The notes beneath the pieces were generated by a model that did not search any database, was not told the DNA's origin, and worked only from the letters and a program-made list of their open reading frames with translations. From Candidatus Wolfebacteria bacterium GW2011_GWA1_44_24 (GTDB lineage: Bacteria > Patescibacteriota > Minisyncoccia > UBA6257 > UBA9933), in the NCBI GenBank assembly GCA_001001115.1, contig LCIO01000001.1, forward strand, positions 71,501 to 135,500: DNA of 64,000 nucleotides, given 5' to 3'. This document shows positions 2,752 to 55,288 of the stretch, piece by piece (the stretch's first letter is position 1; every line of letters begins with the position of its first letter). A program made the position numbers and the translations under genes.

Positions 2752-3547
2752 GATTGAAATTGAGCAACGGCGACGCGGTTGCCGTCATTAAAGAAACGTT
2801 TTGAGGAAAAGCGATTCGGAAAAAAAAATCTTCAAATGCTTTTAAATTTTCCAGTTCGGTTTTGGAAACACTGATTTTCACGCCATTTTTATTCGCCAAA
2901 AAACCGATAATTCTTAATCTTGAAAGAAGAAAAGCGTTGTTATTCAAAACAAATCCGCTTGTTTCTATTTTTATTTTATCTTCAGCCATTGCCGTTTTCG
3001 CCTCCCTAATCTGAATTTTAGGGCGTTCAAATTCGCTTTTCGATTTCCAGCCGACATCGGCGATGGATATTCTGATATCCGAAACATCTCTCGGATTAAT
3101 TTCAAGCGGCTCAACGATATATTTTATTTCAGCCGCGTAAATGAAAGATTTTCGGGTTAAACTTTTAATTTTTCCTCCATTTTTGCCGTAAATATCCAGA
3201 GTGTAAGAAAAACCGTCGGCGCCGTAATTGGCGTTGGAATTTTTGATTTCCGCCGCAACCGCGATTTTATCGCCGGTTGGAAAATATTTTACCCAATTTA
3301 CTTGAATCGGAGATAGAGTTTTAATTTCGCAGGATTGACATGACCCGCCGCAATCAATGCCGGTTTCGCTTTGATTTTGTCTATTATCAAAACAACTCGG
3401 CGCCTGTTTTATTATAAAAAAATAAATGCCGTAAAAAATCAAAGAAAAGAAAAACAAATATCCGGCGCCGTAAAGAAGCTGTTTTACTAAACGTTTATTC
3501 ATATTAAATAATTTTAACAAAAAAAATGAAAACAAAAAAGCCGGCAA
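2705..3547 (-). CDS. hypothetical membrane-anchored protein
   Basis: 280 aa ORF with an N-terminal hydrophobic segment and no recognisable motif. Confidence 0.35.
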   Translation of the reverse strand: MPAFLFSFFLLKLFNMNKRLVKQLLYGAGYLFFFSLIFYGIYFFIIKQAPSCFDNRQNQSETGIDCGGSCQSCEIKTLSPIQVNWVKYFPTGDKIAVAAEIKNSNANYGADGFSYTLDIYGKNGGKIKSLTRKSFIYAAEIKYIVEPLEINPRDVSDIRISIADVGWKSKSEFERPKIQIREAKTAMAEDKIKIETSGFVLNNNAFLLSRLRIIGFLANKNGVKISVSKTELENLKAFEDFFFRIAFPQNVSLMTATASPLLNFNLADPNQTQIYVEAIR

Positions 3548-3653
3548 ACCCTACTTTCCCAGCCGCCGAAGCAGCAAGTATCATCGGGACCGTACGCTTT
3601 CACTTCTCTGTTCGGAATGGGAAGAGGTGGGACACATACGGTTAAATCACCGG
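3541..3653 (-). rRNA. rrf: 5S rRNA
   Basis: The reverse complement reads CCGGTGATT...GTCCCACCTCTTCCCATTCCGAACAGAGAAGTGAAAGCGTACGGTCCCGATGATACTTG...GCCGG. This matches the conserved 5S core (CCGAAC.CAGAAGTGAAAC..) and the terminal helix I pairing. Confidence 0.8.
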
Positions 3654-3711
3654 CTTATTTATTTATTCAATTTATTAAATCCTGAACCGAATTACGCGCT
3701 CGGCGCTCCGG

Positions 3712-6688
<2,977 letters not shown>

Positions 6689-6843
6689 CTTCTAAAAACC
6701 AGAGCGCTGAATGCGCAACGCTCCGATTTCGGGACTTAAAAATTGGATTTTTCAGTTTTCAACGAGCAATCGGCCGGTTGTTTCATCTTTAGCATTCCAC
6801 TTTCAATCATCTTGAACCGATGAGCGAAAGCGGAGCGCCAATG

Positions 6844-6994: not shown

Positions 6995-7363
6995 TTAGTA
7001 TTCTTCTTTCATCGCCTCGGCTTTGGTTTTTTGAATTCGGTCTGCCGGATGATTCACCGGCGAATAAACGGTGTAAATCTTCAACGGCGTTGAGCCGGTA
7101 TTCCTGAAATTGTGCTTGACGCCGGCATTAACAAAAACCAAATCCCCTTCTTTTACTGGCGACGGCTGGCTCTCTATCACCGCCTCGCCATTGCCTTGAA
7201 CAAAAACCAAAATCTGATCAACGGCGTCGTGAACTTCTTCGCCAATGTCTTCTCTCGGCAACAAAGACATTAAAACAATCTGGGAATGTTTTCCCGTACT
7301 GACCACCTGCCGGAAATTTTCGTTTTGCTTGGCGAGCTCAATTATATTTTTATGAAAAACCAT
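6995..7363 (-). CDS. cupin domain protein
   Basis: 122 aa; beta-barrel cupin-like region GDLVFVNAGVKHNFRNTGSTPLKIYTVYSP. Confidence 0.55.
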   Translation of the reverse strand: MVFHKNIIELAKQNENFRQVVSTGKHSQIVLMSLLPREDIGEEVHDAVDQILVFVQGNGEAVIESQPSPVKEGDLVFVNAGVKHNFRNTGSTPLKIYTVYSPVNHPADRIQKTKAEAMKEEY

Positions 7364-7809: not shown

Positions 7810-9214
7810 TTACATCCAAAGCAAGTGGTCTCCTTCTTTTATAAGAATATCCGATTCAAACATTAAGCCGCATTCTTCTTCGGTTTTTACTTCATTAACT
7901 GTCTGTTTTTGCCGGCGCAAGCTGGAAATTTTGCCGGTTCCGATTTCGTTGTTTTCTCTGACGATTTTCAGGCGAATATTATTTTTGATGACACCTGTAA
8001 CGACCCGTCCGCCAATCAATTGTTTTTTGCCTTTTGGCGAACTGAAAATTTTAAGAATTTCCAGTTCAGCTTGAGGCAATGGTTTTTCCAACAACCTTGC
8101 TTCTTGTTTAAGCAAATCAATCAATTCATAGATGATTCCCGAGGAAATAATTTTAATATTTTGGGCTTTGACAAAACTTTCCGCGACTTTATTGATTTTT
8201 GTTTTGAAGGCGACAATAACGGCGTTGGAATTAACGGCGTCTTTGACATCGCCATCGGTAATCTCACCGATTGATTCTTTTAATATATTTATTTTAATGT
8301 TTCCAAAATCGGTATTTTTAATGATTTCCGAGAGAATTTCCAAAGAACCGCTGACATCGGCTTTAAGAATCGTATTAAAAATCCGAAAATATCCACCCGC
8401 CGGGACGCCTATTTCTTGAACTCGCGGAATCGGCGAAATAATATCCGCGGCGGGCGCGGCCGCGGAAAATCAAAGCCGGACTCGAAGGCCGAAGTTCTGC
8501 CGTTTTTTCTCCCAAAAAATTCTCCAAAATTTTTATTTTTCCGCCGGCGCCGAAAGTGGCAATTTTATCTCCGATTTTCAAAATTCCGTTCTCCGCGATG
8601 ACGGAAACGACGATCCCGCGGCGATTGTCGGATTTCGCTTCGATAATCACGCCGCCGGCGTCAGCGTCCGGATTGTAAGTCAAATTTTCCATTTCAGCCG
8701 CCAACAAAACCAAGTCCAGTAATTCATCGACTCCTTGGCCGGTTTTGGCTGAAATTGCCTGCCAGGAAACATTGCCGCCGCGGCCCTCAAGCAAAACGCC
8801 GTTTGCCGTCAAATCGTTGATGGTTTTTTCAATGTCCGCGTTCGACTTGTCTATTTTGTTAACGGCGACGACAAACGGCGTTTTGGCCGAATTCAAAATT
8901 TCAATGGATTCTTTAGTTTGAGGTTTAACGCCGTCGTCGGCCGCCACCACTAAAATCGCCAAATCAGCCGCAATAGCTCCCCGAGAACGCATTTTTGAAA
9001 ACGCTTCGTGTCCGGGCGTATCGATAAAGGTTATTTTTTTGCCATTATGAATAATTTCATAAGCGCCGATTGATTGAGTTATGCCGCCGGCTTCCCTGGC
9101 GACAAAATTGGTCTTGCGGATAAAATCCAGCAAACTGGTTTTGCCGTGGTCAACGTGTCCAAGAACCGCCACAATCGGCGGCCGGATTATTAAATTTTTG
9201 ACTTTTTCTGTCAT
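7810..9214 (-). CDS. infB: translation initiation factor IF-2 (short form starting at the G domain); reading frame interrupted as assembled (two ORFs, 8375-9214 and 7810-8343)
   Basis: The upstream ORF carries the GTPase motifs [23 protein letters not shown] and NKIDK plus a domain II beta-barrel. The downstream ORF is in a different frame; read upstream of its TTG it gives ...[35 protein letters not shown], the conserved IF2 VKADVQGS region and C-terminal barrel. The two frames differ by 1 nt, and the switch lies near 8413-8497, where there is a GC-rich GCGGCGGGCGCGGCCGCGG tract. Confidence 0.8.
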
Positions 9215-17087: not shown

Positions 17088-18893
17088 TTATTGTTTCCTT
17101 GTTCTTTTTCTTTCGTGTTCCGATAAAATCGCCTTTCTGATGCGGATATTTTTTGGGGTAATTTCAACCAATTCGTCTTCACCGATGTAATCCAAAGCGT
17201 CTTCCAGCCCCATCTGCTTCGGCGCTTCAAGCCCTTCCTGAACGCCGAAATTTTTTGTCCGAAAATTAGTCAGTTCCTTCGTTTTGCAGATATTCACCAT
17301 AATGTCTTCGGCTTTGGCATTTTGTCCCACCACCATTCCCTCATAAATTTCAACGCCCGGCCCGATAAAAAGCCGTCCCCGGCCTTGAGCGTTCAATAAG
17401 CCATAACTGTTGGAGACCCCGCTTTCCGAAGCCATCAATGAACCGTGAGGATTTGAAAAAAATTCTCCCTTAAATTCTTCATAGCCCATAAAAATGCTGT
17501 TGATTATCCCCAACCCCTTGGTATTTATTAAAAATTCGTTCCTGATGCCGATTAATCCTCTTGTCGGGACGACAAAATCCAGGCGAGCTTCCTCGCGCTC
17601 CACTTTCATGTCTTTCATTTTTCCCAATCTGCGGCCCATCATTTCGATAATAATTCCGGAAAATTTATCCGGCGACTCGATAAAAACAAGTTCCATCGGT
17701 TCCATTGTCTTTCCGTCAACTTCTTTTAAAATCACTTGGGGCTTGGAAACTTCCAACTCATGTCCTTCGCGCCGCATTTTTTCAATCAAAATCGCCAAAT
17801 GCAATTCTCCTCGTCCGGAAACAATCCAGCGGTCGGAAACGCCGGCCGGAACCACTTTCAACGCCACATCGGTTTCAAGTTCCTGTTCCAAACGTTCTTT
17901 AAGATTGCGCGAGGTCGTGTATTGGCCGTCTTTGCCGACTAACGGCGAAGTATTGACGCCGAAAGTCATTTTAATGGTCGGTTCGTCAATGGTGATAACC
18001 GGCAAAGCCTCGGGATTGTCAATATCAGAAATGGTTTCGCCGATGGAAATATCGGCGATGCCGGAAATCGCAACGATGTCGCCGGCCGCCGCTTCTTCAA
18101 CGTTTATTCTGTTCAAACCGTCGAAAAGCATCACCGAGGTCAATTGAATTTTTTTAATTTCACCGTTGCGATTAATATGGCTGACAACCATTCCTTTTTT
18201 CAAAACGCCCGAATACAGACGGCCGATGGCGATTTTGCCTTTGTAGTTGTCGTAAGCCAGATTCACCGTCAGCATCTGCAGCGGCTTATTTGAATTGATT
18301 ATCGGCGCCGGAATATATTCAATAATTTTTTCAAAAAGCGGCTGGACATTTTCCATTTTGCTTAAATCCGGCTCCAAGCCCGCTTTGCCCTGGATAGAAG
18401 AAGCGTAAATAACCGGAAAATTTATTTGTTCGTCGCCGGCCCCCAATTCAATGAATAAATCAAACGTCTGATTCAGCGCCCATTGCGGCCTGGCATCGGG
18501 CTTGTCAATTTTATTGATGACCAGAATAATTTTATGGCCCGCTTGAATCGCTTTTCTCAAAACGAATTTTGTCTGCGGCATCGGCCCTTCCTTGGCGTCA
18601 ACCAAAAGCAGAACGCCGTCAACCATTCTCATAATCCGCTCCACCTCGCCGCCGAAATCGGCGTGGCCAGGCGTGTCAACGATGTTGATTTTCACGCCTT
18701 TATGCTTAATTGACGCGTTTTTCGAGAAAATGGTGATTCCCCGCTCTTTTTCAAGCTCATTGGAATCCATTATTAAATTGTTTGCCTCATCGGTTTTTAA
18801 TTTAAATCCCTCCGATTGCTTTAAAAGCGCGTCGACCAAAGTGGTTTTGCCGTGGTCAACGTGGGCAATGATGGCGATGTTTCTGATATTCAT
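17088..18893 (-). CDS. typA: GTP-binding protein TypA/BipA
   Basis: [28 protein letters not shown] and a translational-GTPase domain order. The ORF-track start at 19043 adds a non-homologous 50 aa extension; I placed the start at the Met of [17 protein letters not shown] (18893). Confidence 0.85.
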
Positions 18894-20754: not shown

Positions 20755-20789
20755 AAAAAACCGTCCCGCCTAGGCGGGACGGTTTTTTT
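20755..20789. terminator. bidirectional rho-independent terminator downstream of cspA
   Basis: AAAAAA-CCGTCCCGCC-TA-GGCGGGACGG-TTTTTTT. Confidence 0.55.
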
Positions 20790-53146: not shown

Positions 53147-55288
53147 TTATTTTTTACCTTCAATTATCAATTGCGCGACATTTTGGGGCGTTTCTTCGTA
53201 TTTGTCGAATTCCATCGTAAAACTTCCCCTGCCCTGGGTAATTGAACGGATTTTCGTGGCATAACCGAACATTTCAGACAGCGGAACTTTAGCGTCAATC
53301 ACCCTGAGATTGGCGCGTTCGCCCATTCCTTCAATTCTGCCGCGCTTGCTTTGAAGGTCGCCTGTGGCATCGCCCAAAAAATCGGACGGAACAATTATTT
53401 GAATTTTCATTATCGGTTCAAGAATCACCGGTTTGGCGCGCCTAACGGCTTCGCTCAAGGCCATGGCACCGGCGATTTTGAAAGCAATTTCCGAAGAATC
53501 AACTTCATGGAAAGAACCGTCGTAAATTGCTACTTCAAGGTCGACTATAGGATAACCCGCCAGCACGCCGTTGTCCAGCGCTTCTTTTACTCCTTTTCCC
53601 ACCGCCGGAATGAACTCTTGAGGAATAATGCCTCCTCTAATTTCATTGACAAAAACAAATCCCTTGCCTCTTTCCAGATTTTTAACTCTCAGCCACACGT
53701 GGCCGTATTGGCCGCGACCGCCGGATTGTTTGATATATTTTCCTTCGGCTTCGGCTTCACCTCTGATTGTTTCCTTATAAGCCACTTGTGGCCGGCCGAC
53801 ATTGGCTTCAACGCCGAATTCCCGCTTCATTCTGTCAACGATAATTTCCAAATGCAATTCACCCATTCCGGAAATAATCGTTTCACCGGTCTCAAGGTCG
53901 CCGCTAACCCTGAAAGTCGGGTCTTCTTCGGACAATCTCCTTAAAGCCAAACCCATTTTTTCCTGGTCAACCTTGGTTTTCGGCTCGATTCTTATGGAAA
54001 TCACTGGTTCCGGAAAAACAATTTTTTCCAAAATAACGGGGTTTGACGGATCGCAAAGCGTGTCTCCGGTTGAAGTGTTTTTTAATCCGACAGCTGCGCC
54101 GATGTCTCCGGCATACATTTCCTCCACTTCCTCGCGTTTATTGGCGTGCATCCGGACAATTCTGCCGACCCGTTCCTGGTCGTTTTTTATCGAATTCAAA
54201 ATATAACTGCCTTTTTTAAGAACGCCTGAATACACCCTGAAATAAGTCAGATTGCCGACGTACGGGTCGCTGGCGATTTTGAAAGCCAAAGCCGTAAAAG
54301 GTTCGTCGTCTTTGGGCCGGCGGATAATTTCTTCCCCCATTTTTACGCCAATGCCTTTAATGGGTTTGATTTCGGCCAAATCAATGGGCGAAGGCAGATA
54401 GTCAATGACGGCATCAAGCAAAAACTGCGCTCCTTTATTTTTCAGGGCCGAACCGCAAATTACCGGAACAAAACCGTTTTCAATCGTGGCTTTTCGGATA
54501 ATCCTCCTGACTTCTTCTTTGGATATTTCTTTTCCGACTAAATATTTTTCCATAAAACCATCGTCATATTCGGCGATTTTCTCCAACAGTTCATGCCGAG
54601 ATTTTTCCGCTTGCGCTTTCAAATTCTCCGGAATTTCTTTCTCAATAATTTTTTCACCATGTTCGCCCTGAAACTCATATGCTTTCATTTCAATCAAATC
54701 AATGACGCCGTTGAAATCTGCTTCCAATCCGATCGGCAGCTGCAAAGGATAAGCATTCAAAGTCAGCCGTTCGTGAATGGAACGCAAAGAATTTTCAAAA
54801 CTTGCTCCTGTCCGGTCAAGTTTGTTTATTAAACAAATTCTCGGCACCCGGTATTTGTCCGCCTGATGCCAAACTGTTTCGGATTGAGGCTCCACACCTG
54901 CCACACCGTCGAAAACCACCACGCCGCCGTCAAGCACCCTTAAAGACCGTTCAACTTCAACGGTAAAATCAACGTGTCCCGGCGTGTCAATAATGTTAAT
55001 CCGATACTCGTTGTTTTCCCGAACTTTCTGTTTTTCTTTTTCATCGACGATATTTTGCAAAAATCTGGTAATTGTCCAAAAACAGGTGGTGGCGGCCGCC
55101 GTGATGGTGATGCCCCTTTCTCGTTCCTGTTCCATCCAATCCATAATGGCAGCGCCTTCATGAACCTCGCCGATTTTATGGGAAATGCCGGTATAAAAAA
55201 GAATCCGTTCGGAAACGGTTGTCTTACCGGCGTCAATATGGGCAATAATGCCGATATTCCGGTATTTTTCTAAAGGGTACTGACGCAT
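53147..55288 (-). CDS. fusA: elongation factor G
   Basis: 713 aa; [22 protein letters not shown] and the five-domain EF-G architecture. Confidence 0.9.

What the first reader, a model, noticed from the sequence alone, without database searches (positions are those of the whole stretch)
8343..8500. infB (IF-2) reading frame broken between the G-domain/domain II half and the C-terminal half
IF-2 is essential, yet it is encoded here as two ORFs in different frames (8375-9214 and 7810-8343). Both frames show IF2-like sequence around 8413-8497: frame A has [11 protein letters not shown]; frame B has [16 protein letters not shown]...KADVSGSLE. So a single +1 or -1 event lies there, next to an atypically GC-rich GCGGCGGGCGCGGCCGCGG tract (including a NotI site). 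This is either an assembly or sequencing indel in a GC-rich patch, or a genuine frameshift, pseudogene or recoding site.
Basis: seen in the sequence. Interest (0 to 1): 0.55.

Follow-up and report, generated by a model that had tools for sequence, protein, structure and literature searches.

The report
Assembly gap breaks the infB gene
The essential translation factor gene infB looks split in two here only because this metagenome assembly dropped 59 bases next to a very G+C-rich hairpin-forming palindrome. Other assemblies of the same organism carry the gene intact, so the split is very probably an artefact.

Summary
infB (minus strand) is read as ORF A (9214-8375, 279 aa) and a +1-frame continuation (open 8469-7810), next to an all-G+C tract.

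The lesion is not a 1-nt indel. The window is Candidatus Wolfebacteria GW2011_GWA1_44_24. It lacks 59 nt (codons 251-270 of the intact 487-aa protein) exactly at 8465|8464.

An independent MEGAHIT assembly from the same Rifle aquifer read series (L005) is 100% identical over the flanks and has one continuous gene. In that intact allele the missing bases run into a 26-nt perfect, 100% G+C palindrome (12-bp stem, -21 kcal/mol).

Every other assembly of this clonal population fails at the same spot in a different way:
- two have runs of N;
- one contig ends there in G-rich junk;
- one has a 120-nt deletion;
- intact versions are 484, 485 or 487 aa.

The window also lacks 109 nt of its 23S rRNA gene that four sibling assemblies have.

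The deleted residues include the conserved GFxxLPxxGExF end of domain II. No recoding signal is conserved, and all homologues are single ORFs.

Verdict: a local assembly error at a sequence that is hard for Illumina and IDBA-UD. It is not a pseudogene or a frameshift site. Interest is low. Read mapping would settle it.

The parts
8465..9214 (-). infB codons 1-250 (G domain and most of domain II), correct frame
   Evidence: tblastn of intact P0123 residues 1-250 = window 9214-8465, 100%. TIGR00487 positions 81-325. Pfam GTP_EFTU 1.6e-37.
8464..8465 (-). Deletion junction: TTC(8467-8465)|C(8464). 59 nt present in intact alleles are missing here: GGTTTTGAAAATTTGCCGCAAGTCGGTGAAAAATTTCAGTGCGGCGAGAGCGCGGCGGG.
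   Evidence: Anchor-to-anchor comparison gives 165 nt in the window against 224 nt in L005. BLAST blocks L005 1-3750 and 3810-6667 are both 100%. P0123 residues 251-270 are absent. The missing sequence is nowhere else in the window.
8447..8464 (-). Remnant (18 of 26 nt) of the perfect all-G+C palindrome GCGGCGGGCGCGGCCGCGCCCGCCGC of the intact allele. It includes the NotI site.
   Evidence: Sequence. In L005 the hairpin has a 12-bp G:C stem and a 4-nt loop, -21.4 kcal/mol as DNA, z -2.8. The G+C patch was listed.
8375..8464 (-). Out-of-frame tail of ORF A ([29 protein letters not shown] plus TAA). This is a nonsense reading of DNA that encodes [28 protein letters not shown] in the true frame.
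   Evidence: Translations. The tail aligns to nothing in 20 homologues. The same DNA is read in frame B in intact L005/P0123.
7810..8463 (-). infB codons 271-487 plus stop (linker, C1 and C2 domains), true frame, +1 relative to ORF A
   Evidence: tblastn of P0123 residues 271-487 = window 8463-7813, 100%. TIGR00487 positions 384-574. Pfam IF-2 PF11987 1.9e-23.

Best explanation
The broken infB is a local mis-assembly in the deposited MAG (Candidatus Wolfebacteria GW2011_GWA1_44_24), not a property of the organism.

The real gene is one ORF of about 484-487 codons. Its domain II-C1 linker contains a 26-nt perfect, 100% G+C palindrome, flanked upstream by two smaller A+T inverted repeats.

Shown here: this spot is where independent short-read assemblies of the same clonal population break, gap or disagree. 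The window's version simply lacks 59 nt ending inside the left arm of the palindrome.

Inferred mechanism: the single-stranded hairpin and its GGC-rich sequence cause Illumina dephasing, miscalls and a coverage drop. A multi-k de Bruijn assembler (IDBA-UD, default settings) then bridges or collapses the weakly supported stretch. The result is a consensus that no read supports. The loss of 59 nt (2 mod 3) produces the apparent +1 frameshift.
For: 1. Identity of the window. The 279-aa and 177-aa products are exactly KKT56520.1 and KKT56519.1 of GW2011_GWA1_44_24.

2. An intact allele exists. L005 is a MEGAHIT contig from SRR1658462, PRJNA268031. That project is the Rifle aquifer 0.1 um filter time series, and the window genome's GW2011 name suggests the same Rifle groundwater study (naming read from my own knowledge, not verified). 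L005 is 100% identical to the window over 3750 and 2858 nt on either side and has a continuous 487-codon gene.

3. Every other assembly fails at the same spot, each differently.
- L002 (GCA_000996445.1) has 62 N at the centre of the palindrome.
- L004 has 75 N.
- The L003 contig ends there in a G-enriched degraded copy of the true sequence.
- L001 (GWA2_42_10) has a 120-nt deletion.
- Intact proteins are 484, 485 and 487 aa and differ only within the palindrome.

4. The palindrome folds into a 12-bp all-G:C hairpin of -21.4 kcal/mol. A 40-nt window there reaches 92.5% G+C in a gene of 44%.

5. The window has a second such defect 2.9 kb away. 109 nt are missing from the 23S rRNA gene but present in L001, L002, L003 and L005. 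The Rfam LSU score is 2205.8 against 2448.9 bits.

6. The deleted residues include G251, F252, P256, G259, E260 and F262. These are at least 90% conserved in the 22-row alignment. They align to domain II of T. thermophilus IF2.

7. Literature.
- Genomes of the BioProject PRJNA273161 set, from Rifle groundwater, were assembled with IDBA_UD defaults (PMC5113843). The GW2011 name points to the window genome belonging to that set.
- Inverted repeats and GGC motifs trigger Illumina sequence-specific errors, coverage loss and assembly gaps (PMC3141275).
Against: - No reads were available, so the absence of read support for the window's junction is inferred, not shown.
- I could not show that L005 comes from the very same sample (GWA1) rather than another time point of the series.
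- The junction shows no microhomology or repeat that would explain a simple collapse.
- The exact assembler behaviour is my inference.
- The in-frame length variants (484, 485, 487 and 447 aa) could partly be real alleles.
Confidence: 0.9

Rival explanations
1. The deletion is real. The GWA1 population, or a dominant subpopulation, carries an infB pseudogene or null allele made by palindrome-stimulated deletion.
For: - Long perfect palindromes are genetically unstable (general knowledge).
- Several different length variants are seen around the palindrome.
- Three of them (484, 485, 447 aa) are in frame, as selection on real alleles would favour.
Against: - IF2 is essential, and no second infB is in the window.
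- The flanks are 100% identical to intact alleles over kilobases, so there is no sign of decay.
- The loss removes a conserved domain II motif.
- Two sibling assemblies have N gaps and one has a contig end at the same place. These are technical signatures, not biological ones.
- The same assembly also lacks 109 nt of conserved 23S rRNA.
Confidence: 0.05
2. Programmed +1 ribosomal frameshifting, as in prfB, joins the two frames. One candidate site is UUU UAA at 8380-8375, where tRNA-Phe can re-pair on UUU in the +1 frame.
For: - Frame B is +1 of frame A.
- GAT TTT TAA AT allows perfect +1 re-pairing at an in-frame stop (read directly).
Against: - The same DNA is read continuously in frame B in the intact allele, so the site never evolved as a shift site.
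- There is no Shine-Dalgarno-like element at the prfB spacing. The nearest GGGTGG ends about 12 nt upstream.
- The shifted product would carry 29 nonsense residues and still lack 20 residues with the conserved GFxxLPxxGExF motif.
- All other 119 listed homologues are single ORFs of 447-539 aa.
Confidence: 0.01
3. The gene is naturally split. IF2 is made as two polypeptides, G domain plus domain II, and C1 plus C2.
For: GenBank annotates two IF-2 CDSs, KKT56520.1 and KKT56519.1.
Against: - There is no Shine-Dalgarno-like sequence before the TTG at 8343.
- The TTG lies inside the conserved ADVSGSLE|ILSE motif of C1.
- Intact alleles have identical DNA.
- No homologue is split.
Confidence: 0.01

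Closest known systems
Local assembly errors in short-read metagenome-assembled genomes (Chen et al. 2020, Genome Res, PMC7111523)
   Same: - A consensus stretch differs from other assemblies of the same population at one spot only.
- Sibling scaffolds carry N gaps there.
- The outcome is an incorrect protein-coding sequence in the public record.
- The assemblies of this project were made with IDBA_UD, in which that paper's authors suspect such errors are particularly prominent.
   Different: That paper defines such errors by lack of read support, which I could not test. Here the trigger can be named: a perfect G+C palindrome.
Illumina sequence-specific errors at inverted repeats and GGC motifs (Nakamura et al. 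2011, NAR, PMC3141275)
   Same: - The intact allele combines an inverted repeat with several GGC/GCC motifs.
- One contig (L003) ends there in a run of miscalls enriched in G.
- Gaps and branching at such sites are the effects that paper describes.
   Different: That paper describes miscalls and gaps. A clean 59-nt deletion in the consensus needs an additional assembler step, which I infer.
prfB (RF2) programmed +1 frameshift
   Same: A +1 frame relation, and a slippery codon followed by an in-frame stop can be found (UUU UAA).
   Different: - No upstream Shine-Dalgarno-like element at the right spacing.
- No conservation.
- The intact allele reads straight through.
- The product would lack conserved residues.

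Membership tests
Local assembly error in a MAG | The difference from independent assemblies of the same population is confined to one spot within otherwise identical sequence | tested here: met
   100.000% identity over 5750+2767 nt (L001), 2757+2855 nt (L002) and 3750+2858 nt (L005). The only breaks are at infB and at one 23S site.
Local assembly error in a MAG | Independent assemblies disagree with each other at that spot, including scaffold gaps or contig ends | tested here: met
   A 59-nt deletion, a 120-nt deletion, 62 N, 75 N, a contig end with junk, and intact genes of 484, 485 and 487 codons.
Local assembly error in a MAG | A sequence feature known to disturb sequencing or assembly is present at the spot | tested here: met
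   A 26-nt perfect all-G+C palindrome forming a 12-bp stem, -21.4 kcal/mol. Inverted repeats and GGC are named as triggers in PMC3141275.
Local assembly error in a MAG | The consensus at the spot is not supported perfectly by any read | not testable with these tools
   No read data are accessible. This is the decisive test.
prfB-type programmed +1 frameshift | A slippery P-site codon is followed by an in-frame stop in the 0 frame | tested here: met
   GAT TTT TAA at 8383-8375 allows UUU to re-pair on UUU in the +1 frame. This is probably coincidental.
prfB-type programmed +1 frameshift | A Shine-Dalgarno-like stimulator lies about 3 nt upstream of the shift codon | tested here: not met
   The upstream sequence is GGC GGG TGG ATA TTT TCG GAT. 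The purine-rich GGGTGG ends about 12 nt before TTT.
prfB-type programmed +1 frameshift | The two-frame architecture is conserved in orthologues | tested here: not met
   119 of the 120 best hits are single ORFs of 447-539 aa. The only short one is the window's own product. Intact alleles have 100% identical flanks.
Pseudogene of infB | The lesion is reproducible in independent data from the same organism | tested here: not met
   No other assembly has the 59-nt deletion. L005, P0001 and P0122 are intact.
Pseudogene of infB | A functional second copy exists, or there are further signs of decay | tested here: inconclusive
   There is no second infB in the 64-kb window and no other substitution in the gene. 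The rest of the genome was not available.
Bacterial IF-2 (TIGR00487 / PF11987) | G domain, domain II, C1 (PF11987) and C2 in one chain | tested here: met
   This holds for the restored allele. P0123 aligns over residues 3-482 to T. thermophilus IF2 3j4j, E 1.3e-91. The window's halves score 300 and 120 bits against TIGR00487 (cut-off 424) only because the gene is split.

The most novel reading that the evidence does not exclude
The 26-nt perfect G+C palindrome in the IF2 domain II-C1 linker is a genuinely unstable site in this Wolfebacteria population. At least some of the length variants (484, 485, 487 and 447 aa, and perhaps out-of-frame deletions) would then be real coexisting alleles of an essential gene rather than assembler noise. 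That would be hairpin-driven micro-heterogeneity in an otherwise SNP-free population.
Probability: 0.06. Interest if true: 0.45.

Novelty: not a real feature. Interest (0 to 1): 0.07.

Why it matters
The finding matters mainly as quality control. GenBank holds two truncated "IF-2" proteins (KKT56520.1 and KKT56519.1) and a 447-aa version (KKS25589.1) that are most likely artefacts. The window's 23S rRNA gene also lacks 109 conserved bases.

Anyone using this MAG for gene-content, pseudogene or recoding surveys of CPR bacteria, or for rRNA structure comparisons, would be misled.

The case also gives a clear example of a G+C palindrome inside an A+T-rich genome defeating several short-read assemblers at the same base. 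If the deletion were real, an essential initiation factor would be inactivated, which would be remarkable. The evidence is against that.

Tried and rejected
- **JGI metagenome contigs.** I scanned them for a 33-nt exact pattern just upstream of the junction to find more assemblies. There were 0 hits, so that collection does not hold this population.
- **Exact-product look-ups.** P0001, P0122 and P0088 were not on record. The DNA of the 485-aa and 484-aa variants could not be read, and which intact length is the true one stays open.
- **A dispersed repeat or mobile element.** I asked whether the palindrome belongs to one. It occurs in only 6 representative genomes, all high-G+C Actinomycetes-type organisms or MAGs and none CPR. 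The window has no other copy and no comparable G+C palindrome. Rejected.
- **The missing 59 nt displaced elsewhere in the window.** 0 matches with up to 3 mismatches. Rejected.
- **A second infB copy in the window.** Only weak hits (28-30% identity) to other GTPases at 18387-18878 and 54740-55015. Rejected.
- **Repeat-mediated collapse as the origin of the 59-nt loss.** The junction has no microhomology. The left breakpoint sits at the centre of a small A+T inverted repeat and the right one 5 nt before the palindrome centre. This is suggestive but unexplained.
- **Programmed frameshifting and a split gene.** Both rejected on comparative grounds.

Full report
**Observation**

On the minus strand the window encodes an IF-2 in two pieces. 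ORF A runs 9214-8375 (279 aa). A second frame, +1 relative to A, is open from 8469 to the stop at 7810.

- ORF A matches the NCBIfam IF-2 equivalog TIGR00487 at profile positions 81-325. Pfam gives GTP_EFTU.
- The second frame matches profile positions 384-574. Pfam gives the IF-2 C1 domain PF11987 plus a β-barrel domain.
It is one of only six such patches in the 64-kb window, whose overall G+C is 41.8%.

**What organism and what the gene should look like**

A protein search with the stitched halves returned the window's own 279-aa product as KKT56520.1 of Candidatus Wolfebacteria bacterium GW2011_GWA1_44_24. The 177-aa C-terminal ORF is KKT56519.1.

The same search found essentially identical but continuous IF-2 proteins of 485 aa (P0001), 484 aa (P0122) and 487 aa (P0123), and a 447-aa version from the sibling genome GWA2_42_10 (P0002). 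The other 119 listed homologues are single chains of 447-539 aa.

**The lesion**

tblastn of the 487-aa protein against the window gives two blocks, both at 100% identity:
- residues 1-250 at 9214-8465;
- residues 271-487 at 8463-7813, in the other frame.

Twenty residues (GFENLPQVGEKFQCGESAAG) are therefore absent and one base (8464) is left over.

At the DNA level, the distance between two anchors flanking the site is 165 nt in the window and 224 nt in L005, the contig that encodes the 487-aa protein. The window lacks GGTTTTGAAAATTTGCCGCAAGTCGGTGAAAAATTTCAGTGCGGCGAGAGCGCGGCGGG, which is 59 nt (57+2). That explains the apparent +1 shift. This sequence is nowhere else in the window.

**The same population, assembled many times**

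The flanks of the window are 100.000% identical to L001 (5750 and 2767 nt), L002 (2757 and 2855 nt) and L005 (3750 and 2858 nt). At the infB spot every assembly differs:

| Assembly | State at the spot |
|---|---|
| L005 | intact |
| L002 (GCA_000996445.1) | 62 N placed exactly between the two arms of the palindrome |
| L004 | 75 N covering the stretch from GATTTTCGGT to CGCGGATATT |
| L003 | contig ends there; its first 48 nt are a G-enriched, error-ridden copy of the true upstream sequence |
| L001 | lacks 120 nt (in frame) |
| Intact proteins | differ from each other only by 2-3 Ala/Gly codons inside the palindrome |

L005 is a MEGAHIT assembly of SRR1658462 from BioProject PRJNA268031. That project is the 0.1 um filter time series of the Rifle aquifer experiment. 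The GW2011 name points to the window's genome coming from the same Rifle groundwater study. This link rests on my knowledge of the naming convention and on identical DNA, not on a record I could read.

**Why this spot**

The intact allele contains GCGGCGGGCGCGGCCGCGCCCGCCGC. This is a 26-nt perfect palindrome made only of G and C, inside a gene of 44% G+C; a 40-nt window there reaches 92.5%. As single-stranded DNA it folds into a 12-bp G:C stem with a 4-nt loop, at -21.4 kcal/mol. Only 1 of 200 shuffles folds as well.

Two smaller A+T inverted repeats lie just upstream. The window's left breakpoint sits at the centre of the first of them.

The literature fits this picture:
- Nakamura et al. 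2011 (PMC3141275) identified inverted repeats and GGC motifs as the two main triggers of Illumina sequence-specific errors. These cause coverage loss, apparent branching and gaps in assemblies.
- Genomes of this Rifle groundwater set (BioProject PRJNA273161) were assembled with IDBA_UD at default settings (PMC5113843).
- Chen et al. [quoted passage not shown] They counted 13 in one 1.13-Mb CPR genome.

The step from a weakly covered, error-prone hairpin to a clean 59-nt deletion in the consensus is my inference.

**A second defect nearby**

The only other difference between the window and its siblings in the 11.3 kb compared lies inside the 23S rRNA gene (3714-6695, minus). At 5607/5608 the window lacks 109 nt that L001, L002, L003 and L005 all have. 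The Rfam LSU score drops from 2448.9 bits (L001) to 2205.8 bits (window).

From memory, the missing piece (…GGGAAACAGCCC…GGAGGTTGGCTTAGAG) belongs to the conserved domain II region leading into the GTPase-associated centre. Two internal deletions in two essential genes within 3 kb, both unique to this assembly, point to the assembly rather than the organism.

**Function of the missing residues**

In a 22-row alignment (20 proteins plus the window's two reading frames), G251, F252, P256, G259, E260 and F262 are at least 90% conserved. They align to VLGFQELPHAGD of Thermus thermophilus IF2. The crystallised fragment 4b44 (G domain plus domain II) aligns up to query residue 263. The deletion therefore removes the end of domain II.

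The 29-residue tail of ORF A aligns to nothing.

**Rivals**

- **Real deletion or pseudogene.** This is not excluded without reads, but it is unlikely. No other assembly shows it, there is no other change in the gene, no second infB is in the window, and the neighbouring assemblies show technical signatures (runs of N, a contig end).
- **Programmed +1 frameshifting.** A UUU UAA site at 8380-8375 would permit +1 re-pairing. However, the same DNA is read straight through in the intact allele, there is no Shine-Dalgarno-like element at prfB spacing, and the product would still lack 20 residues and carry 29 nonsense ones.
- **A naturally split IF2.** There is no ribosome-binding site before the TTG at 8343, and that TTG lies inside a conserved C1 motif.

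**What remains open**

It is not settled which of the 484-, 485- and 487-codon versions is the true sequence, or whether any of that variation is real. The palindrome is not a dispersed element. It occurs in six high-G+C genomes only, none of them CPR, and has no relatives in the window.

**Verdict**

This is an assembly artefact at a hairpin-forming G+C palindrome (confidence about 0.9). It is not a real feature of the genome and its interest is low. It is still useful as a warning about the deposited IF-2 proteins and the 23S rRNA of this MAG.

Noticed in passing
window 5607-5608 (23S rRNA gene 3714-6695, minus strand): The window's 23S rRNA gene lacks 109 nt (CTCCATGCTCAAAAGGGAAACAGCCC...GGAGGTTGGCTTAGAG). 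These are present in four otherwise identical assemblies (L001, L002, L003, L005). The Rfam LSU score is 2205.8 against 2448.9 bits. This is probably a second local assembly error.
   Followed up: partly
L005:3801-3826 (intact allele; corresponds to window 8447-8464 plus the missing bases): A 26-nt perfect palindrome of pure G+C with a central NotI site encodes the Ala/Gly/Pro run (SAAGAAAPAA) in the IF2 domain II-C1 linker. It is absent from homologues of 58-70% identity. Intact assemblies differ by 6-9 nt inside it (484, 485 and 487 aa).
   Followed up: partly
L001:5702-5805 (GW2011_GWA2_42_10, KKS25589.1): The sibling genome's infB has a 120-nt in-frame deletion (447 aa). It removes KFQCGES...GGYFRIFN, and its left breakpoint is at the centre of a small TGAAA/TTTCA inverted repeat. 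It is probably also an assembly artefact.
   Followed up: partly
window 7143-7198 versus L003:1301-1313: The ENA contig L003 lacks 56 nt of the cupin gene between two near-identical 15-16-nt direct repeats (GATTT(T)GGTTTTTGTT). This is either a repeat collapse in that assembly or a real strain deletion.
   Followed up: no
window 3539-6695 and the whole window: 23S and 5S rRNA genes are present, but there is no 16S rRNA gene anywhere in the 64 kb. Upstream of the 23S gene lie a cupin gene, a 42-aa rubredoxin-like ORF, tRNA-His/Leu/Cys and infB. The rRNA genes therefore appear unlinked.
   Followed up: no
window 20755-20788: A 34-nt perfect palindrome, AAAAAACCGTCCCGCCTAGGCGGGACGGTTTTTT, has A and T runs on either side. 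It looks like a bidirectional intrinsic terminator.
   Followed up: no
window 7810-9214: This IF2 starts about 10 residues before the G domain, at TIGR00487 position 81. It has no long N-terminal region, as in all listed Wolfebacteria/Patescibacteria homologues (475-539 aa).
   Followed up: no
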